Shown here: piece after piece, positions 908 through 24,819 of the stretch
How the letters are laid out: each line of letters starts with the position of its first letter
Position numbering within the stretch: position 1 is the first letter of the stretch
Notes under the pieces: generated by a model
What the model was told of the DNA's origin: nothing
Database searches by the model: none
The model's input: the letters and a program-made list of their open reading frames with translations, nothing else
Virus record (IMG/VR): IMGVR_UViG_638275430_000001
Span: 22,274-86,273 of that record
DNA length: 64,000 nucleotides
Origin: a virus
Lineage: Duplodnaviria > Heunggongvirae > Uroviricota > Caudoviricetes
Strand: one strand, 5' to 3'
Made by a program: the position numbers and the translations under genes

Positions 908-3800
908 ACGCAAGTTCTAATCTGTGAGGTAGATATTGCAGTGCAGGCGCTGCACCCGATATCAAGTTATTATCGGTTGTTGCTGTACCAGAAGCGAATC
1001 CAGTTGCCGATATCAACTTGGGCAATTCAACCGCACCAGCGGTTTGCCATGTGTTTGCTGTTGTGTAATATTTGATTCCGAATGATCCGGTTGCACCGGC
1101 AGCGGCACCATCAAGATAATAAACAGTAACAGGTACAAACCAGATATTACCAGCAGCATCTTTGCCTAATATCAATTTGTAATATTCGGTCGGCACGGTT
1201 GCTGCTGCGACTGGGTCAACGTCACCTTGTCCACCGGTATATATATTATTCACGATAAACCCAGCGTTATTCAACGTGCTTTGTTTATTAGTTTCAAACT
1301 GAACTCCAGCAAATGCACCATCAAAGAATGTATCATTATCCGTACCGCCCACAACAGCACCAAATTTCTGAATTAAAAACCAGAATCTAGCTCGTTTCTC
1401 TGGGTCAGTTGAACCACATCGCAACGCAATATCACTGGCTGGTAGTGTATTCACATACGATTGGAAATAGAAATCAACTACGTGCTTTGTAGGACTATAA
1501 ACGTTTGTTGTATCTCTTGTAACGAAGTTCTTTGGATCACCAACTCCGGTATTAACGACTTCTGTTACAACTTTAGAACTTCCAATCTGACGAATCATCG
1601 CATAACTTGAACCTAATGAGTTGTCATCGCCATAAATTGTATGTCCACCACCGGTATCATAAGTAACTCGAACTTTTACCTGCATATCAGCCGTAGGTGT
1701 TACAATTGATCTAGCGATGGACTGTGTGCTAAAGTTTTCCGTTGATGTTGCTGCAACTTTACCTCCATATGTACCCGGTAATCTGTTATTAGCAGAATCA
1801 ACCCAGGTATATGCAAATCGTCCATTTGCCCCAAGTGAAGTAAACACATCACAAACTAACTCATACGTCTTATTTGCTTTCAGAGTAAACACACCGTTAT
1901 TATTAACAACTTCTCCAATCGAAGTCACATTAAACGCAAATGGCAAATCAAATTGTGTGTTGGTACCAGCAGCAGAATATCCAGTTGTGAATCTAGCAAG
2001 CAAGAAATCAGTTCTGTCGCCTTCTAATATAACAGTAGATCTATTATCAACAATATTTGAACCGTCAATTTCTTCTACCAGAATCCAAGTATCACCGCCA
2101 TCATTAGAGTTCTCGCCTCCAGCAACAATATTATGATTCTGTCCGGAATAAGCACAACGAAGACTGATCATATTATTTTCTGTTGGAGTAATATATGCAA
2201 TTCCAACCGGAGTATTTGTGTATGCAGTAGATCCCCAGATACTAGCGTACATCTGATCCGCTGGCCAAGACGCAGTTGTATCATTAAACACACCCCATCT
2301 AGCCCAACTTGTTCCTAATCCAGAAGCAGATATGTTATAAGTGATCTTATATGTATATCCAGATCTCAATGCAATTTGTGTTCCATTGCCTCTTGCAATA
2401 TTATCGCCAACGCTTCTAACTGTCGTCAGTGATAATATCGAGTTTAATGTTTGTGCCAATGCGGTAGCAGATAATTTAGCAAACATATGTCCACGAGCTG
2501 TGCCAGTTGCAGATGATGAAGTTAATTTCCAGTATCTAGTAGCAAGCACAAACTGATAACTATTACCAATGGGTGAGGTATAAGTTGCATTGTTTGCTGG
2601 ATTACTTGGGAACGTGATTGTTTCCATTTTGCCATCATAATCTGCCCATGAGTTATCCGGACGATGTAATAGAACTTGATTCAAGTTCATATCAAAGTAA
2701 ATCTTAACTCCGAATGTTGGTACACTATACGAATTTGTCAATCTATAGCTTGTGTATGACTGATTCATATCGACTGTGCCAAGTCTTACCCATTCTTTTC
2801 CAGCATTGAATATTTGACCAGGCGACACGTTTTTGGTACAAATATAAACTGCTTCCGCTAGTCCATATCTGACTAGATCTCCAGTATAATATTGACGGTC
2901 GATTTCAAATCCAACAATATTCAATGGCTCAAGTTTAGATAGATAATTCTGTAGACCGAATGCTGGCACATTACCAACCAACGGCATCCATTTTGTCATA
3001 TCCAGTTTGATTGTGTTTGTTGAATTCAAAGTCTGAGTCGAAATAACATAGCACATATAAAGTGTAATATCAGAATCATTCAACGCAATAACATCACCGA
3101 ATGTATAGTTAGTATTAACAGCGGGAACAACTCCTCTCCACACTGGTTGATATCTACCACCATTCAGTACCGGTCTGAATGTCTGTGTGTTACCAGAACC
3201 CCACGCGAAATTCGTACCAGCGACGATGGCCGCGTTGGCCTGCGCAATGATACCCTGATAAGATACAATCGCATTAGCATCGTATGAAAGACTGGTACTG
3301 AACACTGGTGCAGTTTTAAAGCCAGTCAGTTTTGTGAAGTAATTCAGTTCCGTAATTGCTTTGCCAACGCTAGTAATACTCGCACGATACAGATCTGTCC
3401 TGTAATAGAACATATCACCCTTGGCAATAACACGATCTAGTAGCGGGTTAATTTCATCCCAATCCGGTACGTTAGTAATTTCTGCCGCTGTTGTTAACTC
3501 TTTCCAGTTAGTTGATAATGTACCAACTACGAATGGAGTATCATACGGCATATCACCATTTGCGCGATATACTTTATTATCACGGTAACATAGATCGTCT
3601 TTGATCCAACTTCTTTGTTGTTTCCAATCCGGTACGTTTGCTGTTAATGCGGCTTCTGGCAATTGTGATTCCAGAATCTTACCATCGCTATCTGTAATAA
3701 CGATATGAGTGGAAGAAGCATCAGCCCAACGTCCATCATTCCACACTTTCGGAATGTTATCTTTGATTGGCTGTGTAACTAATGGTATTCTTTCTGCCAT
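906..3800 (-). CDS. Tail fiber protein, paralog B (964 aa). N-terminal ~115 aa homologous to the 1069-aa neighbour
   Basis: G/S/T/N-rich beta-type composition. Shared N-terminus MAERIPLV..PKVW..G.WADA. Late-promoter-like CTAAATAAT 27 nt upstream. SD caagaggattgacaaaATG. Confidence 0.75.
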   Translation of the reverse strand: MAERIPLVTQPIKDNIPKVWNDGRWADASSTHIVITDSDGKILESQLPEAALTANVPDWKQQRSWIKDDLCYRDNKVYRANGDMPYDTPFVVGTLSTNWKELTTAAEITNVPDWDEINPLLDRVIAKGDMFYYRTDLYRASITSVGKAITELNYFTKLTGFKTAPVFSTSLSYDANAIVSYQGIIAQANAAIVAGTNFAWGSGNTQTFRPVLNGGRYQPVWRGVVPAVNTNYTFGDVIALNDSDITLYMCYVISTQTLNSTNTIKLDMTKWMPLVGNVPAFGLQNYLSKLEPLNIVGFEIDRQYYTGDLVRYGLAEAVYICTKNVSPGQIFNAGKEWVRLGTVDMNQSYTSYRLTNSYSVPTFGVKIYFDMNLNQVLLHRPDNSWADYDGKMETITFPSNPANNATYTSPIGNSYQFVLATRYWKLTSSSATGTARGHMFAKLSATALAQTLNSILSLTTVRSVGDNIARGNGTQIALRSGYTYKITYNISASGLGTSWARWGVFNDTTASWPADQMYASIWGSTAYTNTPVGIAYITPTENNMISLRCAYSGQNHNIVAGGENSNDGGDTWILVEEIDGSNIVDNRSTVILEGDRTDFLLARFTTGYSAAGTNTQFDLPFAFNVTSIGEVVNNNGVFTLKANKTYELVCDVFTSLGANGRFAYTWVDSANNRLPGTYGGKVAATSTENFSTQSIARSIVTPTADMQVKVRVTYDTGGGHTIYGDDNSLGSSYAMIRQIGSSKVVTEVVNTGVGDPKNFVTRDTTNVYSPTKHVVDFYFQSYVNTLPASDIALRCGSTDPEKRARFWFLIQKFGAVVGGTDNDTFFDGAFAGVQFETNKQSTLNNAGFIVNNIYTGGQGDVDPVAAATVPTEYYKLILGKDAAGNIWFVPVTVYYLDGAAAGATGSFGIKYYTTANTWQTAGAVELPKLISATGFASGTATTDNNLISGAAPALQYLPHRLELA

Positions 3801-3863: not shown

Positions 3864-6800
3864 TTATGACATTTTTGTGATTTTCCACCACATTCTATTA
3901 GATGATGGAGCGGCATTTGCTCCATTACCAACGGTAACATCAATTTTTAACTTGATGTCTCCTGCGGCTGTATTTGATACCAACGCACATCCAACAGAAG
4001 CGTCGCCATCTTTCCAAGATGATGATGTAGGCCAGAAACTAATAGTTTGTATGCCTCCAGTTAATGTGGCATTACTAACACTACCTAATGTTGAGTAGTA
4101 GTATCCATCTGCAATAGATCCATTTGACATTGCCCATTGCCATTCAAAAATATATTTCCCAGCGGGAAGAGTTAACGTTGATGTACCAACACCACTGACA
4201 CCAATTGAGTCTATCAATGAACTGAATATTGCTGAATATCCCGTGCTTGCGCCGGTGTTGGAGAATGTTCCCATTGCCATCTTCGGACTAACATACGCGG
4301 CAACCGCTCCGCTGTTTAGTGTAGTGACATCAAATCCAATTCCCCCTAATCCAAGCGTATTACCTCCCCCGACTGTTAGCGTCAACGGCAATGCAGGTAA
4401 AACTCCTATTTGAAGCCATACTAAGTTGTTAGTTGGTCCATTTGCAACGTAAGTTCCGGTAACGGATCCGGCTACCCAAACTCCGACATAATCTCCGATT
4501 TTAACTTGTGAACCGGGAGAAACGGAAGTAGTTCCACTCGCAAATGTTGTTGTGCTAACGAGATCAAACTTACCACCAGTGCTAAAAGAACTTTCGCCTA
4601 TTTGCGGACGCATAACAACAACTGCGCCAGATGATCCGTAATTGGGAATTCTAACAGTAGACAAAATACCGTCTACGTTTATTCTTGACTGACGATCAAG
4701 AAACACGTTTGGTCCACCCATAGTAGCATTTGGAGCTGGATTTTGTCCTTTAGTAACTACTCCCGTACTACTAGCAGCAGTCAACGGTTTCCATTCCCCA
4801 GATCCATAAAGAACATAGTCCTGTGTATTAAGTGGAGCGGCAGCAAGAGCACCAGCTTTACCTTGAACTGTTGCGGTAGATCCCTGGAATATTGGGAATG
4901 CGCCGGCTGTTCCGGATATCTGAACAACGGTCCACTGACTATAACCGTCGGATGTAGATGGATATGTTTTGTCGCGACTTCTAACTAACGCAATTTCCAA
5001 ATTTTTCGTGGGTGTATAAATGAAATTACCACCCTGTCCTCCGGTTGCTTGTGATGTACCGGATGCATCAGAAATTAACAACTCACCTGGATCAATATAT
5101 AATCCGTCCGTGATGTTTCTCCATCTAAACGCGGCATATTCGGCTCCCGATACGTGTATAGATGTGGTAATCATATAAGTTTGATTTGCTTTTAGTTGCA
5201 CTCTGTTGTTTGTGCATGTTATTCCGTAATTCTTCACGGAAACAATTGGCATCAAACTACCGGTAGTTTGAACGGTCTGAGCAACAGCAGAAATTGTACC
5301 ACTAACAAAAGGAATTTCGGAACTCAATAATTCGGCTGGATCTTTCCATTCTCCGTCACCAAACAGAATCTTTTTCTCGGCACCCGCAACAGGAGCAGCA
5401 ACTACACCCGGTTTACCAGGAGTCGTATTAGTTGCGCCTTGAAAAATAGGAAGACTACCATTAGATCCAGATATTTGCATCACGCTATATGAGCTAAACG
5501 GCTCATGCAATGCAACCGCACCTCCAGTTCGTTTCAGATAAATCGTTTCATTCACTGTTGGAGAATAAATGAATGTTGTACTAAGTGATCCAGCTTCATT
5601 TGCGGTATGTGTTACTGTTATTCCACTGAACGGAGCGGGGCCAATTAGTCCGGTTGTATTAACTGCATTATTATTTGACCATTGAAACGTTGCTGATCCT
5701 AGTGTCGATACAAGATAAACATTCGTGGAAATCAAGTATGTCTGATTTGCTTTTAAATTGATTCCGTTCGAAGTTATTGACATATCGCGTGATTGTGTTG
5801 CTGATAATGCGACAACTGTTCCGTTCGATACGTTCGCCGCTTGTGTTAGTCTGCCCTGAATATAAGGAACATCTGATAATACACTTCCACCTCCGCTTCC
5901 AACTTTCTTCCATGTTGCACCCGTTGTTCCTTCTACAAATACGGTATTTGCGGGAATAGCCGCATTCGAGATATACAACTCTCCGTTGTTTCTAACGAGC
6001 TGCAATGCGTTGTAGGCTTGATTCGCAACGAAGTCAGTAACAGCCCCACCTCCCAGTGCTTTCCATGTTGCACCAGTCGTTCCAACAGCCCATAACGTAT
6101 TCGCAGGGATATCAGCGTTTGCGATATAAGTGTTTCCGTCTGTGTAGACGACTACTGTATTCTTTTTATATGCGCTCGCAAATTTCCAAACGTTATAAGT
6201 TAGATCGTCTGCTTTGGAAAGATAATTATCCAGTATAATCGGAGTATCGTTAATCAAAGGTGCCCAATATGCTGGAAGCGGAGTTGTTTCTGTTCCGATA
6301 GGAGGAGCAGATGCAGCAACACAAACGTAAAGAATATTGGATCTGGGCGTAGGGGCGATTACATCACCATAAAAGAAACCCTGACCATTAGCAGTCATCA
6401 CACCTCTCCAAGCATACTGCAAATATCCGTTGAATAGAACTGGACGCCATGTAACTGCTTGACCACTCGCTCCCCACTCAAATGGAACATTACCACCAAT
6501 GTTTGTGTTTGGTGTTACATAATATCCTTGCCAGCGAATAAGTTCACCGGCGGTATATGATTTGGTATACACATAAGATGGCGGCAACGTAAATCCTGTC
6601 AACTTTTCAAAATGATTAGTAGATGTTATTTCATTTCCTACGTTATTCGCCCGAGATCTATACAGCGAACCGCTGTAATAATACATTTCTCCTTCTCGAA
6701 TAGCGCGATCTATTCCAGGATTATATGCTGTCCAACTCGGAACGTTTGAAATTTCTGCCGCAGATGTAACGAGTTGCCAAGTCGCACCACCAGTAGATAT

Positions 6801-19215: not shown

Positions 19216-20187
19216 TCAGACCTTACAAACATCACAAGAAGAATCTTGTTCTTCGGTACCATCGGCACCATCGCGAGTGTTCGAGTAATAAAGAGACTTA
19301 ACGCCGTGTTTCTGTGCTCTTGAAATATCTTTCAGAACAACTTTCATCGGGATCTTCTCACCCGGATACACAGCAGGATCATAATAAGTATTTGCACTAA
19401 TCATTTGATCCACAAACTTCTGCATGATAGCTACAATGTCCAAGTAACCCTTCATGCCGTGTTTGGTCATCTGCCAAGCTGTCTCATACTCGCTACCAAG
19501 CATGTCTACCTCAGGCACTAGCTGATTAAAGACACCATCTTTCGATTGCTTGGTGCTCACTAGGCCGCGCGGTGGCTCGATACCGTTTGTGCTGTTGGTG
19601 ATCTGTGAACTACTCTCACAAGGCATAAATGCGCTTAGAGTATCGTTTCGCAGGCCGTGCTGTTTGATCTCAGCTCGCAGCCATTCCCAATCCATTTTCA
19701 GATCATTCGGAACGATATTGTCAACGTTCTTATTGTACCAGTCAATCGGTAACAGTCCATCAGCCCATTTTGTCTTATGATGCCACTCGTTTGCACCGCG
19801 TTCTTTCGCCAGCTCCATAGACGCTACCAAGTTCGCAAACTGCATCATTTCCATGGTGCGGTGAACAAGCTTGTTTGCATTTCCGCTAGAGTAGTTAACA
19901 AAATTCTTCGCCAAGAAATAAGCAAAGTTTGTTACACCCATGCCGAGTGCGCGACGCTTCTTGGCTGCCAGTGCTTGAACGACGGGATAATCCTGATAGT
20001 CAAGCAAGTTATCGAGTGCGCGAACAGCAGCGCGAGCAACGTTTAGGAAGTCTTCATAACCCTCAATTGCGCCGAGATTATACGCCGCTAAAGTGCAAAG
20101 GCTTATTTCCGAAACATCTACCTCAATTTCTACCGTGGTATATTCTTCATCTTCGTATACTTCGTAAATTCTTTCATGTTCGATCAT
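19216..20187 (-). CDS. nrdA: Ribonucleotide reductase alpha subunit, C-terminal fragment (NrdA-b)
   Basis: 323 aa. Begins with a 26-aa extension, then EISLCTLAAYNLGA, collinear with E. coli NrdA from ~aa 455 to the C-terminal CxxC tail (SSCDVCKV). Confidence 0.85.
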   Translation of the reverse strand: MIEHERIYEVYEDEEYTTVEIEVDVSEISLCTLAAYNLGAIEGYEDFLNVARAAVRALDNLLDYQDYPVVQALAAKKRRALGMGVTNFAYFLAKNFVNYSSGNANKLVHRTMEMMQFANLVASMELAKERGANEWHHKTKWADGLLPIDWYNKNVDNIVPNDLKMDWEWLRAEIKQHGLRNDTLSAFMPCESSSQITNSTNGIEPPRGLVSTKQSKDGVFNQLVPEVDMLGSEYETAWQMTKHGMKGYLDIVAIMQKFVDQMISANTYYDPAVYPGEKIPMKVVLKDISRAQKHGVKSLYYSNTRDGADGTEEQDSSCDVCKV

Positions 20188-20887
20188 TTTCTCTAAATCT
20201 CCTATTGAGAATAAATCTGGAGATTCCGGTTTCTTTCATGGCAATGCCTATGCTTGGATATTCAATGCCGCCAATGACAATTTTTATACCGTTCGGTGCC
20301 GGCTTTCCTAAATTAGTTGCTCTTGACTTAGGCACATATTCTTTATTGTGTTCATCATCACCAAGCTTATAGAGTTTCCACCCATGGTGATTACTTCTTT
20401 TACCGCGACAAACTGCACTCATTGTACTGGGATTTAATCCGTGCTTCAAGCAGAAATCTTTTAACCCAGAAACAATGTGTTCTTCTCCCGTAGGAGACAC
20501 GAATCGCCATAGATAAGAAAGCTTTTCTCTTTGAACATCAGACATTGGCTTTCCTTTGTTCGGAGCAATACTTCCAGTTTTGACTTCGGATAAAGCCTTA
20601 GCGAGTTTGACACGATTTGATTCATGCATATATGCATAAACTCTACTATGTTCTTTATTTCCAACTCGCATCATGTTATAAGCGAATATCAGTTTGTTGC
20701 TTTTATAAATCTTAGTCAATAAATGATGAACAACATAGTGTGCTTTAGCAGTTAGATATACCAAATTGTCGTCACTATCATCACCTCCCATACATCTTGG
20801 GATAATATGATGTTTCTCTTTGTAACCGGAGATCTCCGAATTTTTAAATTTGTTGATAATTAAGTCGTGTATTCTCTTATAATTCAT
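20174..20887 (-). CDS. HNH homing endonuclease (MobE-like) inserted between the nrdA fragments
   Basis: HHIIPRCMGGDDSDDNLVYLTAKAHYVVH HNH motif. 237 aa. SD agagggtgcaaatATG. Confidence 0.8.
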   Translation of the reverse strand: MNYKRIHDLIINKFKNSEISGYKEKHHIIPRCMGGDDSDDNLVYLTAKAHYVVHHLLTKIYKSNKLIFAYNMMRVGNKEHSRVYAYMHESNRVKLAKALSEVKTGSIAPNKGKPMSDVQREKLSYLWRFVSPTGEEHIVSGLKDFCLKHGLNPSTMSAVCRGKRSNHHGWKLYKLGDDEHNKEYVPKSRATNLGKPAPNGIKIVIGGIEYPSIGIAMKETGISRFILNRRFRENDRT

Positions 20888-20931
20888 ATTTGCACCCTCT
20901 TAACGTACACGACTATTTAGAGGGTGCAAAT
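20888..20931 (-). promoter_or_regulatory. 13-bp perfect inverted repeat hairpin sequestering the HNH gene SD, with an embedded late-type promoter CTAAATAG in the loop
   Basis: atttgcaccctct ... agagggtgcaaat. The loop contains the reverse complement of ctatttag. Confidence 0.55.
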
Positions 20932-20933
20932 TT

Positions 20934-22355
20934 TTAGTATCTCAGAGACTTATATTGATCCGTCGCTACCATAAGTTTGAACTTATCAACTTCGGACTTT
21001 TTGACTTTAAACAACATCTTTTCTTTCTTTCCCATAGGGACTGTCGGCAGCGCGATTTCGATGCACAGATTACCCATACGAATAGGCTCTTTGTACGGAG
21101 TAGCCGAGTTAACGTTATCAACGAACATCGGATAAATGCGACCGGTGCCAGTTCTTTCTTGTGCGAACAGATTGAACAACTCGGAGGCTTTGATACGCTT
21201 CTTACGACACCAAGGCTCGTTTTCCAGCATTTCGTACAGCTCTTTGAACTTCACCGGATCTTTATAAAAGAGATCGTAAAGCTCGCCGTTTTGAACGTCT
21301 GGACTAAAGAGCGTGATATAGTCGTCATTTTTCAGACGCTCGAAAAACAGCTTGTTGATTTGGATACCGTAGTCAAGCTGGCGAATTCGATTTTCTTCCA
21401 CGCCCTTGTTGTTTTTCAGAACAAGGATTTTTTCAACTTCAAGATGCCACATTGGATAGTAAAGAGTAGCAGCGCCACCGCGTACACCACCCTGTGAGCA
21501 ACTTTTTACCGCAGTCTGGAAATATTTCCAGAACGGAATAATACCAGTGTGGCGAACTTCACCACTTCGAATGCGAGAACCTTCGGCACGAATAGCGCCA
21601 CCGTTGATACCGATACCAGCGCGTTTGCTAATATAGTCAACGATTGAACTTGCGGTAGCGTTAATGCTATCGAGTTCGTCGCCGCTTTCGATCTTCACGC
21701 ATGAGCTAAACTGGCGAGTCGGGGTTCGAACACCAGCAAGAATTGGCGTCGGTAGACTCAGTTTGCCCAACGATGTTACGTCATAAAAGTTTTTAACTTT
21801 AGCGATTCTATCTGTTTTTTCGTCTTGATGCAAGCACATTGCAACAAGCATATACAGAATTTGAGGTGTTTCGTAAATCTGATCGGTACTACGATCTTTC
21901 GCCAGGTACTTCTCTTTAAACTGCATTACGCCAGCATAAGCAAGATCAAAATCGCGATCATGCTTGATATAGGCATTCAGTTCATTGAATTCATCATCTG
22001 TCCATTTGATGGCAAGATCTTTATCATAGATGCCGTCTTGTACCAAGTCAAGTGTGTGTCGTTTCAGATGAATCGGGTCAAACTGATTGTAAACGTCTTT
22101 GCGAATCGCATACATTTGCAGACGAGCAGCGACGTATTGATAATCGGATTGTTCAATAGAGATACGATCTGCCGCAAATTTAATTGCCAGCTTCTGAATG
22201 TTCTTTGTGCTCATGCCGTCGGTGATAGAAGGCATAATACCGTTCAGGATTTCATTCGGATCGATTCGAGTTCCAGCAGTAGCGAATCCCAGAATTTTCA
22301 ACAGCTTTTTCGGCTCAAAATTCTCGGTTATCCCACTTGATTTTCTTACTAACAT
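20934..22355 (-). CDS. nrdA: Ribonucleotide reductase alpha subunit, N-terminal fragment (NrdA-a); ATP-cone plus catalytic core to ..CIEIALPT, then a 34-aa tail
   Basis: Collinear with NrdA aa 1 to ~440. Start MLVRKSSGITENFEP chosen (ATG 22353-22355). The track start 22397 has no SD and lies inside the promoter -10. Confidence 0.8.
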   Translation of the reverse strand: MLVRKSSGITENFEPKKLLKILGFATAGTRIDPNEILNGIMPSITDGMSTKNIQKLAIKFAADRISIEQSDYQYVAARLQMYAIRKDVYNQFDPIHLKRHTLDLVQDGIYDKDLAIKWTDDEFNELNAYIKHDRDFDLAYAGVMQFKEKYLAKDRSTDQIYETPQILYMLVAMCLHQDEKTDRIAKVKNFYDVTSLGKLSLPTPILAGVRTPTRQFSSCVKIESGDELDSINATASSIVDYISKRAGIGINGGAIRAEGSRIRSGEVRHTGIIPFWKYFQTAVKSCSQGGVRGGAATLYYPMWHLEVEKILVLKNNKGVEENRIRQLDYGIQINKLFFERLKNDDYITLFSPDVQNGELYDLFYKDPVKFKELYEMLENEPWCRKKRIKASELFNLFAQERTGTGRIYPMFVDNVNSATPYKEPIRMGNLCIEIALPTVPMGKKEKMLFKVKKSEVDKFKLMVATDQYKSLRY

Positions 22356-22397: not shown

Positions 22398-22440
22398 CAG
22401 TCACAAAGAATGTAAACAACTTACATGTTTACAGAGTTAA
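22398..22440 (-). promoter_or_regulatory. T4-type early promoter for nrdA (GTTTACA-N16-TATAAT) with dyad tgtaaaca..tgtttaca over the -35
   Basis: Minus strand reads ctctGTAAACAtgtaagttGTTTACAttctttgtgactgatgTATAATgaaa. Confidence 0.5.
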
Positions 22441-22443
22441 AAA

Positions 22444-22461
22444 ATCCCGCATCAGCGGGAT
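22444..22461 (-). terminator. Hairpin atcccgc-tgat-gcgggat + U6 terminator
   Basis: aaaaaatcccgcatcagcgggatc. Confidence 0.7.
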
Positions 22462-22934
22462 CCCTTGTAAAGCAAAACATCTTGATAAATCGGAGTCAAA
22501 ATGCTCAACCAGTGATTGGCTAGTTCTATCCGAGCTTGATAATAAGCTACTTGATCTTCTTTATAGTAGCCATTTTTCTCACTATGATATTGATCGGTAC
22601 AATCTCCAGTGAGATAGTTTAGCTTAATTACATGTCCGAGATTACCGGACCAATATTTATAGTATTTCAAGAACTCGACATTTGCCATCTTCGTCCTGAT
22701 TTGAAAGCAAAGTCCACGGCGAATATGATCGCGATTGATCTTACATTCGATGATATCATTTAAAGTCTTGATATCGTTCGCGAGTTCTTTGATATCAGCA
22801 ACACCATTCCAGAAGATGATGGACTTTCGTTGACCACTGGAATATTTGGCATTCAGTCTCGCTTGAGTTGCCGCAAGTTCAGCCAGTCGCTTGGCTCGGT
22901 TCGGCATCAAAAAATCAATAATTGTTTTCAGCAT
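22452..22934 (-). CDS. Paralog family member A (160 aa); one copy of the novel ~100-aa 'RHW' domain (..INRDHIRRGLC..KYWSG..GH...YYQARIELANHWL)
   Basis: Tandem array of homologous genes. Shared motifs GRITR.EC..GLC, KYWSG, ARLELARHWL. Confidence 0.6.
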   Translation of the reverse strand: MLKTIIDFLMPNRAKRLAELAATQARLNAKYSSGQRKSIIFWNGVADIKELANDIKTLNDIIECKINRDHIRRGLCFQIRTKMANVEFLKYYKYWSGNLGHVIKLNYLTGDCTDQYHSEKNGYYKEDQVAYYQARIELANHWLSILTPIYQDVLLYKGSR

Positions 22935-22936
22935 GA

Positions 22937-23407
22937 TTACACATTTTGAGTGAAATGATTGTCAACGAAAGTCATTACATCAAGCCAGTGACGAGCCAGT
23001 TCCAAACGAGCTTCGTAAAACTTAACGTTCTTTTCGTAATAGCGTTCTTCGGCATATTGCATTTCGGGAGAATGGCCATCTTTGATGTCAATCAAAAACA
23101 GTTGTCCACACGTTTCTTTGTCCCAGTGACGATACATCGCCATAATTGGATCAGTCCGCAGAATACCAGCAACTTCGAACCCAACATGATAACAGACTCC
23201 ACAGGCAATTCTATTTCGCGCCAGTGTTCGATCTGTGATCTTATACAAAGTTTTCATTGCATCGGCGTATCGTTCTGGCTTTTCGATTCGCAATTTAAGA
23301 AGATCATAATACTTTGTCAAGTTAGCATCGTCCAGAAACTTGAGTTTCAGACGCTCGTTCTTGCTCATGAAAACGGATTTGATTTTTGCTCGCAGAACAG
23401 TAAACAT
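22937..23407 (-). CDS. Paralog family member B (156 aa, more divergent; ..YEARLELARHWL)
   Basis: C-terminal FYEARLELARHWLDV. Consensus early promoter/leader. Confidence 0.6.
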   Translation of the reverse strand: MFTVLRAKIKSVFMSKNERLKLKFLDDANLTKYYDLLKLRIEKPERYADAMKTLYKITDRTLARNRIACGVCYHVGFEVAGILRTDPIMAMYRHWDKETCGQLFLIDIKDGHSPEMQYAEERYYEKNVKFYEARLELARHWLDVMTFVDNHFTQNV

Positions 23408-23463
23408 GATATAACCCTCTCTATAAGATAATGCCAGTATACGCTACTGGCATTAGGTGTCAA

Positions 23464-24327
23464 TTAGTTTTTAGCGATAGCCATCACATTTTCAATGACT
23501 TTCAGCCAATGCCGAGCAAGTTCCAGACGCGCTTCATAGTATGCGGTATCATACTTCATCGAACAATAAACTTCGTCCTTGAATTGCTTGATTGCTTGGT
23601 TCCGCTTGTGATCTTCGATTGTGTAGTGTTTCGCACGAGGATCAGGCATAAAGTTCTTGACTTCATCGGTTTCAAGCAGGATGATGTAACCTTTCCAACC
23701 ACTCCAGAATTTGTAGTCTTTAAGGATATACTCGCCATTCAGCTTGACTTTAATCATTTCACACAGACCTTCTTTGAGCTGATCGCGTGTGATTTTACCG
23801 ATAATAACATCGCGCAGAATTTCGCGAGATTCTTCCCATTCAGAACGATTAAAAACACAATGCCGCACCAGATCATTCATATGAGCCTGACGTTCAACAG
23901 CATCGCAATACTCAGATTGCAGTTTCAGAATATAACGCAGCCAGTGACGAGCCAGTTCCAGACGAGCTTCCCAGTATTCATCATTACCTTCGGACTCTTC
24001 ATCTGCTTCTTGATGAAACTGTGCGATGGCTTCATTCAACGGATCGTCCATTTCATCGGGATTACCAATCAGAATGCTGTGACCTTCCCAGCCGCTCCAG
24101 AACTTGTATCCGTTCAAGATCTTTTCATTGCACAAATCTACACCACCGGCCTTTGAGCCGACAATACGACATATGCCAATCTTGCATTCTTCGCGGGTGA
24201 TACGTCCGTCGATGATATCATTCAGTTTCGCTTTGGATACGTCGAAACGTTCTTTGTTCTTGACGTAATATTTTACGTCTTCGGAAACAGTCGGGTCATT
24301 GATGATTCGGGTTTGCAGTTCGTTCAT
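23464..24327 (-). CDS. Paralog family member C (287 aa) with two tandem copies of the domain
   Basis: GRITREECKIGICRIV..YKFWSGWEGH..YWEARLELARHWL, then GKITRDQLKEGLCEMI..YKFWSGWKGY..YYEARLELARHWL. Confidence 0.65.
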   Translation of the reverse strand: MNELQTRIINDPTVSEDVKYYVKNKERFDVSKAKLNDIIDGRITREECKIGICRIVGSKAGGVDLCNEKILNGYKFWSGWEGHSILIGNPDEMDDPLNEAIAQFHQEADEESEGNDEYWEARLELARHWLRYILKLQSEYCDAVERQAHMNDLVRHCVFNRSEWEESREILRDVIIGKITRDQLKEGLCEMIKVKLNGEYILKDYKFWSGWKGYIILLETDEVKNFMPDPRAKHYTIEDHKRNQAIKQFKDEVYCSMKYDTAYYEARLELARHWLKVIENVMAIAKN

Positions 24328-24387
24328 GATTTATTCCTCAGTTGTTTGATGTGGACATCCTATCATGTCCACATTTGCTGTCAATCG

Positions 24388-24819
24388 TTATTGCAAAACA
24401 ATTTTAGTTTCGATGAAATTGATCCAGTGACGAGCAAGTTCCAGGCGAGCTTCCCAGTACGGATCATTGTCACCGTATTCAGACTCTTCCAAATCTTCTT
24501 CTTCATGAAACTGTTCGATTGCTTGAGGCAGATGATCGTGATACCGACGGGACTCTTCGGTAGTTTCACCGACATACACACAATAGCCTCGCATACCACT
24601 CCAATATTTGTAGCCTTCGAAGACGGAATGATCTGTCAACATATCGCAGTTAATCAGATTGCACAAGCCACCGCGGCACTCATATCGAGTAATGCGACCT
24701 TCTACAACATCTTTGAGGATGTAATACGCTTTCATAATATTTGCATTCATAAACATGATTATTTCCTTAGCAACTAGATACGATAAAGCCAGTCTACGCG
24801 AGACTGGCTTAGGTGTCAA
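24388..24819 (-). CDS. Paralog family member D (143 aa)
   Basis: GRITRYECRGGLCNLI..YKYWSGMRGY..YWEARLELARHWI. Confidence 0.6.
   Translation of the reverse strand: MTPKPVSRRLALSYLVAKEIIMFMNANIMKAYYILKDVVEGRITRYECRGGLCNLINCDMLTDHSVFEGYKYWSGMRGYCVYVGETTEESRRYHDHLPQAIEQFHEEEDLEESEYGDNDPYWEARLELARHWINFIETKIVLQ

What the first reader, a model, noticed from the sequence alone, without database searches (positions are those of the whole stretch)
22452..24819. Tandem array of five copies of a novel ~100-aa domain (GRITRxEC..GLC / KYWSG / YWEARLELARHWL) across four adjacent early genes
Four consecutive genes (160, 156, 287 and 143 aa) are paralogs. The 287-aa gene carries two domain copies, so the domain occurs five times in a row. 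Each copy has a conserved Cys pair (EC..GLC), a KY/FWSG.(E/K)G(H/Y) core and an almost invariant C-terminal (Y/W)(Y/W)EARLELARHWL helix. At the DNA level the C-terminal motif is encoded by a ~35-nt repeat (ccagtgacgagccagttccagacgagcttc), present five times, which could drive unequal recombination. I cannot match the motif to a characterised family. Rapidly duplicating early-gene families in T4-like hyperplastic regions are typical of host-takeover or anti-defence functions. The array sits directly upstream of endonuclease VII.
Basis: seen in the sequence. Interest (0 to 1): 0.8.

Follow-up and report, generated by a model that had tools for sequence, protein, structure and literature searches.

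The report
Paralogous early-gene array in phage Aeh1
Four neighbouring early genes of Aeromonas phage Aeh1 encode five copies of a small, mostly helical protein domain of unknown function from a phage-only family that tends to expand in tandem; it is real and uncharacterised, but this kind of feature is ordinary in T4-like phage genomes.

Summary

Several details need correcting:
- The fourth gene is 122 aa, not 143.
- The Cys pair is not conserved; only one Cys is invariant.
- The DNA repeat has three close copies, with exact runs of 20 nt or less.
- The duplications are old (22-37% identity) and orthologs are under purifying selection (dN/dS 0.10-0.18).

Copy number varies from 1 to 5 among relatives. 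Three of the four genes sit behind a sigma-70-like promoter plus hairpin, which resembles the known PeSL cassettes. The one rearrangement I could trace, a deletion in phage Ah1, used ATTGACA promoter microhomology rather than the coding repeat.

The family is probably a divergent branch of a wider phage-only superfamily. That superfamily forms arrays of about 19 genes in Shewanella phage Thanatos-1 and Pseudomonas phage PspYZU05, and sits at the early left end of some podophages.

The function is untested. Most likely these are early accessory binding proteins for host takeover or anti-defence.

The parts
24388..24756 (-). Aeh1p053: 122 aa, one domain, acidic (pI 4.8). The mechanical ORF extends to a TTG at 24819, which is really a promoter -35 box.
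   Evidence: (phrog_9486, E 1.2e-44). AlphaFold model pLDDT 83.8, pTM 0.79.
23464..24327 (-). Aeh1p052: 287 aa, a fusion of two domains (domain 1 about 23896-24327, domain 2 about 23464-23895), pI 5.4.
   Evidence: E 5e-152; two domains, iE 1e-50 and 3e-45; AlphaFold pLDDT 78.5, pTM 0.70. Two-domain orthologs exist in Ah1 and avDM12.
22937..23407 (-). Aeh1p051: 156 aa, one domain plus a basic N-terminal extension of about 45 aa (pI 8.9). Contains CGVC instead of C..GLC.
   Evidence: (E 9e-65). Orthologs at 81-82% identity in PX29 and avDM12.
22452..22934 (-). Aeh1p050: 160 aa, one domain plus a basic N-terminal extension (pI 9.4). Its start lies 2 nt after the p051 stop, so it is probably translationally coupled. 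This is the most divergent copy (YYQARIELANHW).
   Evidence: (E 1e-60). The only close relative is metagenomic P0020.
24786..24819 (-). Promoter plus hairpin (PeSL-like) upstream of p053: TTGACA, 17 nt, TAGACT, with a 10-bp stem overlapping the -10 box.
   Evidence: dG -17.1, z -4.2. The same element precedes an unrelated 57-aa ORF in Ah1.
24349..24384 (-). Promoter plus hairpin (PeSL-like) upstream of p052: TTGACA, 16 nt, TAGGAT, with a 10-bp stem.
   Evidence: dG -14.9, z -4.7
23429..23463 (-). Promoter plus hairpin (PeSL-like) upstream of p051: TTGACA, 16 nt, TATACT, with an 11-bp stem. Its ATTGACA is one partner of the deletion junction seen in phage Ah1.
   Evidence: dG -15.6, z -4.6
23086..23092 (-). 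Internal ATTGACA within p051. This is the second partner of the Ah1 deletion junction.
22439..22464 (-). Intrinsic-terminator-like hairpin (GGGATCCCGC-TGAT-GCGGGAT followed by T6) that closes the array. The p050 stop codon lies in the loop. The nrdA-A promoter follows (TTTACA, 16 nt, TATAAT, 22416-22389).
   Evidence: dG -18.1, z -4.6
22985..23014 (+).
23941..23970 (+). The same motif DNA in p052 domain 1 (exact match).
24424..24453 (+). The same motif DNA in p053 (2 mismatches).
23506..23535 (+). More diverged motif DNA in p052 domain 2 (78-83% identical to the three close copies over the 36-nt motif).
22509..22538 (+). Weakly similar motif DNA in p050 (67-72% identical).

Best explanation
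What it is (shown).
- The region is a block of four early genes of the T4-like Aeromonas phage Aeh1 (Aeh1p053, p052, p051, p050). Together they encode five copies of a soluble, mostly helical domain of about 120 aa that is found only in phages (PHROG 9486).
- Three of the four genes have their own sigma-70-like promoter with an embedded hairpin. The fourth is translationally coupled, and a terminator closes the block.
- The block arose by old duplications plus one gene fusion.
- Relatives differ by gain and loss of whole cassettes, and carry 1 to 5 copies. The one event I could trace crossed over at promoter sequence, not at the coding repeat.
- The family is probably the Aeromonas-phage branch of a larger phage-only superfamily with motifs G[IL]C, [WY]xxSGxxxY and EYxxxRxEL. 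That superfamily forms arrays of about 19 genes in other T4-like phages.

How it most likely works (inferred).
- The invariant residues (L14, G30, C32, R104, L107, A108, W111 in p053 numbering) are mainly small or hydrophobic. They probably fix the packing of the long C-terminal helix against the G-L-C turn.
- The loop between the small hairpin and helix 76-87, the N-terminal extensions and the net charge all differ between paralogs.
- I therefore read the domain as a conserved scaffold that presents variable surfaces. On this view the proteins are made early and act by stoichiometric binding to host macromolecules, or possibly phage ones, as dispensable host-takeover or anti-defence accessories.
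- They possibly work as dimers, since one member is a covalent two-domain fusion and neighbouring genes are translationally coupled.
For: Identity and homology.

No known family or fold:
- Sequence libraries gave nothing.

Restricted to phages:
- The exhaustive HMM search of 1.84 billion representative proteins listed 15 hits; one is the repeat-rich artefact P0022, so I count 14 real clusters.
- All 14 phage records with a match are Aeromonas phages.
- No relative was found in 185,579 bacterial and archaeal genomes.

Early expression signals: TTGACA-type promoters with stable hairpins (z -4.2 to -4.7) and a terminator. These match the description of PeSL elements in PMC2839356.

Dispensable and variable:
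- Arrays of 1, 2 plus a remnant, 3 and 5 domains, always between gene 49 and nrdA.
- Ah1 retains an out-of-frame remnant, and the deletion junction lies in ATTGACA.
- The p053 slot is filled by an unrelated 57-aa ORF in relatives.

Functional proteins: ortholog dN/dS is 0.10-0.18.

Scaffold plus variable surface: only 7 columns are invariant across 25 sequences, and most are structural residues. There are acidic (pI 4.8-5.4) and basic (pI 8.9-9.4) subtypes.

Wider superfamily:
- The Foldseek BFVD best hits outside the family are five PspYZU05 proteins.
- hhalign gives probability 73% and 70%, E 3e-5 and 4e-5, with all three motifs in register.
- phrog_8153 is the second-best PHROG for p053 (E 0.016).
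- Reciprocal HMM rankings agree.
- 19 of 22 genes in one Thanatos-1 locus are members, as are 18 of 19 in PspYZU05 genes 188-206.
- The third gene from the left end of Xylella podophage Paz is a member, which supports an early role.
Against: - No experiment or annotated homolog supports any function.
- Promoter and terminator calls are consensus matches only.
- Strong purifying selection and old paralogs do not look like an arms-race family.
- An invariant Cys and Arg, plus nearly invariant R24, Y49, E86, E106 and H110 within the Aeromonas family, could equally mark an active site or a ligand pocket.
- The link to the wider superfamily rests on about 70% profile-profile probability and weak Foldseek scores (E 0.03, TM 0.49). 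Matching the Foldseek hits to superfamily genes was done by protein length only.
- Dimerisation is inferred only from the fusion and the gene coupling. The two-domain model had alignment depth for domain 1 only.
Confidence: 0.45

Rival explanations
1. The domain is a small enzyme. One version is a HEPN-like, metal-independent RNase that uses the R104-x5-H110 pair on the last helix. Another is a thiol enzyme that uses the invariant Cys at a helix N-terminus together with the invariant Arg. In either case the two-domain fusion would mimic a catalytic dimer.
For: - R-x5-H is present in all five Aeh1 copies.
- Cys32 and Arg104 are invariant in 25 sequences and persist in the PspYZU05 relatives.
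- A two-domain fusion exists.
Against: - There is no Pfam or PDB sequence link.
- The residue after the Arg is hydrophobic, whereas my recollection of HEPN is that it is usually N, D or H.
- His is replaced by Tyr in the phiAS5 and phiWae14 basic copies and in P0018/P0019. It is absent from the superfamily consensus GEYGxLRxELLxF.
- E106 and R109 vary (P0017).
- Nineteen to 25 or more paralogs per genome would be unusual for an enzyme.
Confidence: 0.15
2. The proteins are accessory factors for nucleotide metabolism or ribonucleotide reductase, for example redox or assembly helpers. This would explain why they always lie next to nrdA.
For: - The array lies between gene 49 and nrdA in all 9 arrays whose flanks are covered (7 isolates and 2 long metagenomic contigs).
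- Two PspYZU05 relatives (genes 15 and 16) lie between nrdB and nrdA.
- There is an invariant Cys, and p051 has a CGVC motif.
Against: - A terminator and a separate promoter divide the array from nrdA.
- Copy number falls to 1 and the subtypes present differ between phages that have the same RNR genes.
- Most superfamily members lie elsewhere: between motA and rIIA in PspYZU05, and at the left end of podophages.
- The second Cys is not conserved.
- From my own knowledge of T4, the nrd region is a known hot spot for ORFan and homing-endonuclease insertion (nrdA.1, nrdA.2, mobE). mobE also splits nrdA in this window.
Confidence: 0.1
3. The genes are neutral or selfish ORFan cassettes. They persist only because promoter-hairpin elements shuffle them, and they give the phage no benefit.
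For: The cassettes are flanked by PeSL-like elements and are gained, lost or replaced between relatives. PeSL-mediated shuffling is documented for RB49 and phi1 (PMC2839356).
Against: - dN/dS of 0.10-0.18 over dS of about 0.8-1.1 shows sustained protein-level constraint.
- Every related phage examined keeps at least one copy.
Confidence: 0.07
4. The important feature is the roughly 35-nt DNA repeat itself, acting as a recombination substrate or another DNA- or RNA-level signal.
For: Three copies match within 3 mismatches where 0 are expected by chance. One pair shares a 20-nt exact run.
Against: - Synonymous positions vary. The fraction of identical codons is 0.56 in the motif against 0.46 at other conserved residues.
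- Exact runs are 5-20 nt, while T4-type recombination is said to need patches of up to about 50 bp (Singer 1982, as cited in PMC2839356).
- The documented Ah1 deletion did not use the repeat.
- There is no Rfam match.
Confidence: 0.03

Closest known systems
PeSL (promoter-early stem-loop) plus ORFan cassettes in the hyperplastic regions of T4-type phages RB49, phi1, nt-1 and PST (Arbiol et al. 2010, PMC2839356; Comeau et al. 2014, PMC4122927)
   Same: - Near-consensus TTGACA, 16-17 nt spacer, then a -10 box, with a stable stem-loop between or over the boxes.
- Located in the intergenic space just upstream of a Shine-Dalgarno site and an ORFan.
- Gene content between such elements differs among close relatives.
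- One deletion junction lies in the promoter element.
   Different: - Here the cassettes carry paralogs of one family rather than unrelated ORFans.
- The stem sequences differ from the G(n)-loop-C(n) type of RB49.
- Promoter and terminator activity, and mini-circle formation, were not tested.
- The Ah1 junction paired a promoter with an internal coding site, not two PeSLs.
Tandem arrays of PHROG 8153/28830/13228-type proteins in Shewanella phage Thanatos-1 (TH1_142-162) and Pseudomonas phage PspYZU05 (genes 01-04, 15-16, 188-206, 220). All are annotated as hypothetical.
   Same: - The same three motifs occur in the same order (G-I/L-C; aromatic-x-x-S-G-x3-Y; E-Y-x3-R-x-E-L).
- Similar size, found only in phages, arranged in tandem, and in T4-like genomes.
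- Profile-profile probability 70-73%, and these are the Foldseek best hits outside the family.
   Different: - The sequences are far more divergent (about 15-20% identity).
- The arrays are far larger (about 19 genes against 4).
- The motif reads YPVP in place of GY-I.
- There is no conserved His or Trp after the Arg.
- They sit at different genome locations.
- Homology is probable, not proven.
HEPN domain RNases (for example the HEPN-MNT toxin 7ae2, Csm6, Csx1)
   Different: There is no profile match. His is not conserved across the family or superfamily. No polar residue follows the Arg. The structural similarity is no better than to any four-helix bundle.
Paralogous early accessory genes of T4-like phages next to a parent gene (alt/alt.-1/alt.-2 and motB duplicates; Nolan et al. 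2006, PMC1524935)
   Same: These are also local duplications of non-core early genes in T4-like genomes, including those compared together with Aeh1.
   Different: Those are copies of genes with a known function. This family has no characterised member and was not mentioned in that paper.

Membership tests
PHROG 9486 (phage protein family, function unknown) | Significant full-length match to the family HMM | tested here: met
   E values of 1e-60, 9e-65, 5e-152 and 1.2e-44 for the four genes. The 287-aa protein spans both halves of the 324-position profile.
Wider superfamily (PHROG 8153/28830/13228/12785) | Profile-level similarity with the three motifs in register | tested here: inconclusive
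   - hhalign probability 73% and 70%, E 3e-5 and 4e-5.
- phrog_8153 is only the second-best hit, at E 0.016-3.1.
- The Aeromonas-family HMM scores PspYZU05_04 at 19.8 bits and psp204 at 21.4 bits.
This makes homology probable, but it falls below the usual 90-95% probability standard.
Wider superfamily (PHROG 8153/28830/13228/12785) | Shared fold | tested here: inconclusive
   Foldseek against BFVD found five PspYZU05 proteins as the best hits outside the family: E 0.03-1.6, probability 0.51-0.99, TM 0.45-0.59. I assigned them to superfamily genes by length only.
PeSL regulatory cassettes | Sigma-70-like -35 and -10 boxes with a 16-18 nt spacer in an intergenic region upstream of an ORFan | tested here: met
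   Three sites match 10-11 of 12 positions, at 24819, 24384 and 23463. Each is followed by a Shine-Dalgarno site and an ATG.
PeSL regulatory cassettes | Stable stem-loop between or overlapping the promoter boxes | tested here: met
   Perfect stems of 10-11 bp. dG is -14.9 to -17.1 kcal/mol, z -4.2 to -4.7.
PeSL regulatory cassettes | Association with gene gain, loss or replacement between close relatives | tested here: met
   p053 is replaced by a 57-aa ORF behind the same element. The Ah1 deletion junction lies in the -35 box.
PeSL regulatory cassettes | Demonstrated promoter and terminator activity | not testable with these tools
   This needs reporter fusions or transcript mapping.
HEPN RNase superfamily | Conserved Rx4-6H motif, usually with a polar residue after the Arg | tested here: not met
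   R-x5-H is present in the Aeh1 copies. However, the next residue is L, I, V, Q or K. His is replaced by Tyr in several members and is absent from the superfamily consensus.
HEPN RNase superfamily | Sequence-profile or significant structural match to HEPN families | tested here: not met
All-alpha NTP pyrophosphohydrolase (MazG/HisE) | Significant fold match, plus the ExxE...ExxD metal-binding motifs (recalled from my own knowledge) | tested here: not met
   The first Cys is missing in 3 of the 5 Aeh1 copies and in several homologs. Only the GxC Cys is invariant.

The most novel reading that the evidence does not exclude
The Aeh1 array is a small member of a large, entirely uncharacterised phage-only superfamily. 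The superfamily has a fold not yet represented in the PDB and has expanded to 19-25 or more tandem paralogs in some T4-like phages. It would serve as a diversified repertoire of early inhibitors, each neutralising a different host defence or host factor, so these arrays would be a catalogue of new anti-defence proteins built on one scaffold.
Probability: 0.25. Interest if true: 0.7.

Novelty: new member of a known kind. Interest (0 to 1): 0.4.

Why it matters
If the inferred role is right, these genes are a compact set of five related early proteins with different surfaces. That makes them a convenient set for finding out which Aeromonas factors or defences a T4-like phage must neutralise.

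The probable link to the very large arrays in Shewanella and Pseudomonas phages would make this a widespread multigene family. It has no Pfam entry, no solved structure and no known function.

The locus also gives a clean natural example of how such arrays change. Cassettes sit behind promoter-hairpin elements, there is one gene fusion, and one deletion can be traced to a 7-nt promoter microhomology.

As it stands, the feature is one more uncharacterised accessory family in a hyperplastic region, which specialists expect to find in these genomes.

Tried and rejected
- Pfam, NCBIfam and PADLOC scans of all members, including at E up to 10, gave nothing recurrent.
- PDB sequence-profile searches with three alignments returned only noise: PLK4, tropomyosin and designed repeat proteins. 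A 13-bit match of the C-terminal helix to 9wiw 'Endoribonuclease' (E 0.48) aligns only an acidic helical stretch, with R and H out of register, so I judged it to be chance.
- Two further word-seeded homolog searches with broader alignments found fewer hits than the first.
- IMG/VR held only the known isolates. Bacterial genomes had no relative.
- I tested whether p055-p057, upstream of gene 49, are another paralog family. They are not.
- A late promoter was rejected. The single TATAAATA lies inside p050 and is within chance expectation.
- The region shows no RNA family match and no compositional anomaly.
- Literature searches found no description of this family, of phrog_9486, or of the Thanatos array.
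- The antisense ORFs on the plus strand (241, 161 and 154 aa) were rejected as genes. All homology, and the codon-level constraint (dN/dS), were found in the minus-strand frames.
Full report
**Identity of the locus.** The window is Aeromonas phage Aeh1 (Straboviridae, Cinqassovirus); the region 22300-25400 matches NC_005260 at 100%. The finding covers Aeh1p050 (22452-22934), p051 (22937-23407), p052 (23464-24327) and p053, all on the minus strand. In the direction of transcription they lie downstream of gene 49 (endonuclease VII; Pfam Endonuclease_7, E 2e-16). They lie upstream of nrdA-A, the first half of an nrdA gene split by the mobE homing endonuclease. The annotated start is the ATG at 24756, preceded by AAGGAA, and gives 122 aa.

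**Is the repeat real?** Yes.
- All four proteins hit one PHROG (phrog_9486, function unknown) at E 1e-44 to 5e-152.
- The 287-aa protein holds two complete domains.
- Blastp between copies gives 1e-24 to 9e-6.
- The five units align with 16 invariant columns.

Several details do not hold.
- Only the second Cys (GxC) is invariant. The first Cys is present in 2 of the 5 Aeh1 copies.
- p051 deviates from KYWSG.
- At the DNA level, the 30-nt motif has 3 copies within 3 mismatches, against 0 expected. A fourth copy is 78-83% identical to those three, and the p050 copy only 67-72% to the other four.
- Exact shared runs are 5-20 nt. Identical codons at identical residues are hardly more frequent in the motif (0.56) than elsewhere (0.46). 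The DNA repeat is therefore a by-product of amino-acid conservation.

**What the proteins look like.**
- No Pfam, NCBIfam or PADLOC family matches, and no PDB sequence matches.
- AlphaFold2 with a 17-sequence alignment gives a confident model of p053 (pLDDT 83.8, pTM 0.79). It has an N-terminal helix, a region of short helices that begins at the G-L-C turn, a small hairpin at YWSG..GY, a helix carrying AIxQFxxE, and a helix of about 30 residues carrying YWEARLELARHW.
- Across 25 sequences only L14, G30, C32, R104, L107, A108 and W111 are invariant. R24, Y49, E86, E106 and H110 are nearly invariant.
- The paralogs fall into an acidic type (p053 pI 4.8; p052 pI 5.4) and a basic type with an N-terminal extension of about 45 aa (p051 pI 8.9; p050 pI 9.4).

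**Distribution and evolution.**
- An exhaustive HMM search of 1.84 billion representative proteins listed 15 hits; one (P0022) is a repeat-rich artefact, leaving 14 real clusters.
- tblastn finds the family only in 14 Aeromonas phage records.
- IMG/VR adds nothing beyond those isolates, and 185,579 bacterial and archaeal genomes hold no relative.
- In all nine arrays whose flanks are covered (seven isolates and two long metagenomic contigs) the array lies between gene 49 and nrdA. Two further arrays sit on short contigs without informative flanks.
- Copy number differs: 1 in SRR14611556_340; 2 plus a remnant in Ah1; 3 in PX29, avDM12, phiAS5, phiWae14, Ahp1_CNU and SRR29999887_293; at least 3 on each of two short contigs; and 5 in Aeh1.
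- Paralogs within Aeh1 are 22-37% identical, whereas orthologs in other phages are 73-84% identical.
- Ortholog dN/dS is 0.10-0.18, against 0.05-0.10 for gene 49.
- The duplications are therefore old and the proteins are under sustained constraint. This is not a rapidly duplicating or rapidly evolving family.

**How the array is organised and how it changes.**
- Each of the three intergenic spacers carries TTGACA, a 16-17 nt spacer and a -10 box, with a perfect 10-11 bp hairpin over the -10 region. The hairpins are stable, with z from -4.2 to -4.7.
- p050 starts 2 nt after the p051 stop. A GC-rich hairpin followed by T6 then ends the block, and the nrdA promoter follows.
- Six such TTGACA-plus-hairpin composites occur in the 64-kb window, all on the minus strand, and three of them are in this array.
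- They fit the published PeSL elements of T4-type phages. Those are strong early promoters combined with attenuating stem-loops that flank ORFans and mediate modular shuffling (PMC2839356; PMC4122927).
- Two natural rearrangements agree with this. First, in Ah1, PX29, avDM12 and a metagenomic relative, the slot of p053 holds an unrelated 56/57-aa ORF behind the same promoter-hairpin.
- Second, Ah1 has lost most of its p051 ortholog and keeps an out-of-frame C-terminal remnant. The junction lies in ATTGACA, which is shared by the -35 box and an internal site of p051.
- No rearrangement was found with a breakpoint in the coding repeat.

**A probable wider superfamily.** The best Foldseek matches outside the family in the viral structure library are five proteins of the T4-like Pseudomonas phage PspYZU05 (E 0.03-1.6). 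I followed this up.
- PspYZU05 genes 02-04 carry the same three motifs in the same order.
- hhalign of the Aeromonas alignment against them gives probability 73%, E 3e-5. Against a 26-sequence alignment it gives 70%, E 4e-5. In both cases G[IL]C, the SG hairpin and EY..R.EL are in register.
- phrog_8153, the family of those proteins, is the second-best PHROG for p053 (E 0.016) and for the PX29 148-aa copy (E 0.061).
- An HMM built from the three PspYZU05 proteins ranks p053 first among 351 window ORFs (E 0.004).
- The Aeromonas HMM ranks superfamily members above non-members among PspYZU05 proteins.

This superfamily has no Pfam entry and all its PHROGs are 'unknown function'. It is widespread.
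- tblastn with PspYZU05_02 hits 48 phage records. These include 14 places in PspYZU05, 19 in Shewanella phage Thanatos-1 and 12 in Thanatos-2.
- Other hits include single copies near the left (early) end of Autographiviridae infecting Xylella and Xanthomonas.
- In one 12.3-kb Thanatos-1 locus, 19 of 22 genes are members.
- In PspYZU05, 18 of the 19 genes numbered 188-206 are members.
- Its consensus motif is absent from the bacterial genome collection and present in 9 IMG/VR contigs.
- I rate the homology as probable, about 75%, not proven.

**Function.** Nothing here tests function.

*Preferred reading.* I think the domain is a conserved scaffold. The invariant residues are mostly small or hydrophobic and fit a tight packing of the C-terminal helix against the G-L-C turn. 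The scaffold carries variable loops, extensions and charge. On this view the proteins are made early and act by binding host or phage macromolecules, as dispensable accessory factors for host takeover or anti-defence. The support for this reading is as follows:
- the early-promoter architecture;
- the variable copy number, including loss;
- the restriction to phages;
- the early-region position of the podophage relatives;
- the very large paralog expansions elsewhere, which are more typical of binding repertoires than of enzymes.

The gene fusion and the translational coupling hint at dimers.

*Rivals.*
- An enzyme, either HEPN-like R-x5-H or Cys/Arg chemistry, is not excluded. It is weakened by the non-conserved His, the absence of any profile match and non-significant structural scores.
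- A link to ribonucleotide reductase is suggested only by position and is weakened by the terminator and promoter between the array and nrdA.
- Neutral cassettes are contradicted by dN/dS.
- A DNA-level role for the repeat is contradicted by the codon data and by the Ah1 junction.

**Verdict.** The 'anti-defence' interpretation is plausible and untested. The 'rapid duplication' and 'recombinogenic repeat' ideas are not supported. The feature is a further example of a known kind of genome feature: accessory early-gene cassettes in a hyperplastic region of a T4-like phage. Its protein family is already catalogued but uncharacterised. The most interesting by-product is the probable membership in a large, unstudied, phage-only superfamily that forms giant tandem arrays.

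Noticed in passing
window 20174-22355 (nrdA-A 20934-22355, mobE 20174-20887, both minus strand); L013 5098-8230: nrdA is split into two genes by the mobE HNH homing endonuclease. A PX29-like metagenomic contig (SRR29999887_293) has the same split, although PX29 itself has an intact nrdA. This suggests the endonuclease insertion moves between lineages.
   Followed up: partly
window 271, 52078 and 63602 (minus strand): Three further TTGACA-plus-perfect-hairpin composites (PeSL-like) lie outside the array. All six in the window are on the minus strand.
   Followed up: partly
L004 (Ah1) 3277-3447; L002 (PX29) 4542-4712; L003 (avDM12) 4429-4599; L013 3412-3582: An unrelated 56/57-aa ORF occupies the position of Aeh1p053 in related phages, behind the same promoter-hairpin element. 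This is a cassette replacement.
   Followed up: partly
L004 (Ah1) about 4345-4495: An out-of-frame remnant encodes the last 45 or so residues of a p051 ortholog (…YYDARIELARHWLNVMTF…). The annotated Ah1 two-domain gene reads through the deletion junction for 13 extra codons.
   Followed up: yes
L019 (Shewanella phage Thanatos-1, MT457552 111280-123576); L020 25578-36516 and L017 243-1802, 8365-9650 (Pseudomonas phage PspYZU05): These are giant tandem arrays of a related, uncharacterised protein superfamily: 19 of 22 genes in the Thanatos-1 locus, and 18 of the 19 PspYZU05 genes numbered 188-206, plus other members. The Thanatos paper does not mention the array.
   Followed up: partly
L002 (PX29) 5292-6176; L013 1948-2832: A Mom-like DNA modification gene sits between gene 49 and the p055 homolog in PX29-type phages. 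It is absent at the same place in Aeh1.
   Followed up: no
L016 (ERZ14207112, 2046-nt contig): A short metagenomic contig carries at least three family members (P0019, P0012, P0020) plus a 56-aa ORF. It includes the only close relative of Aeh1p050, so p050-type copies exist in unsampled phages.
   Followed up: partly
window 22654-22661 (minus strand): The only TATAAATA (T4 late-promoter consensus) in the 64-kb window lies inside the p050 coding sequence (codons for YKYW). This is within chance expectation.
   Followed up: yes
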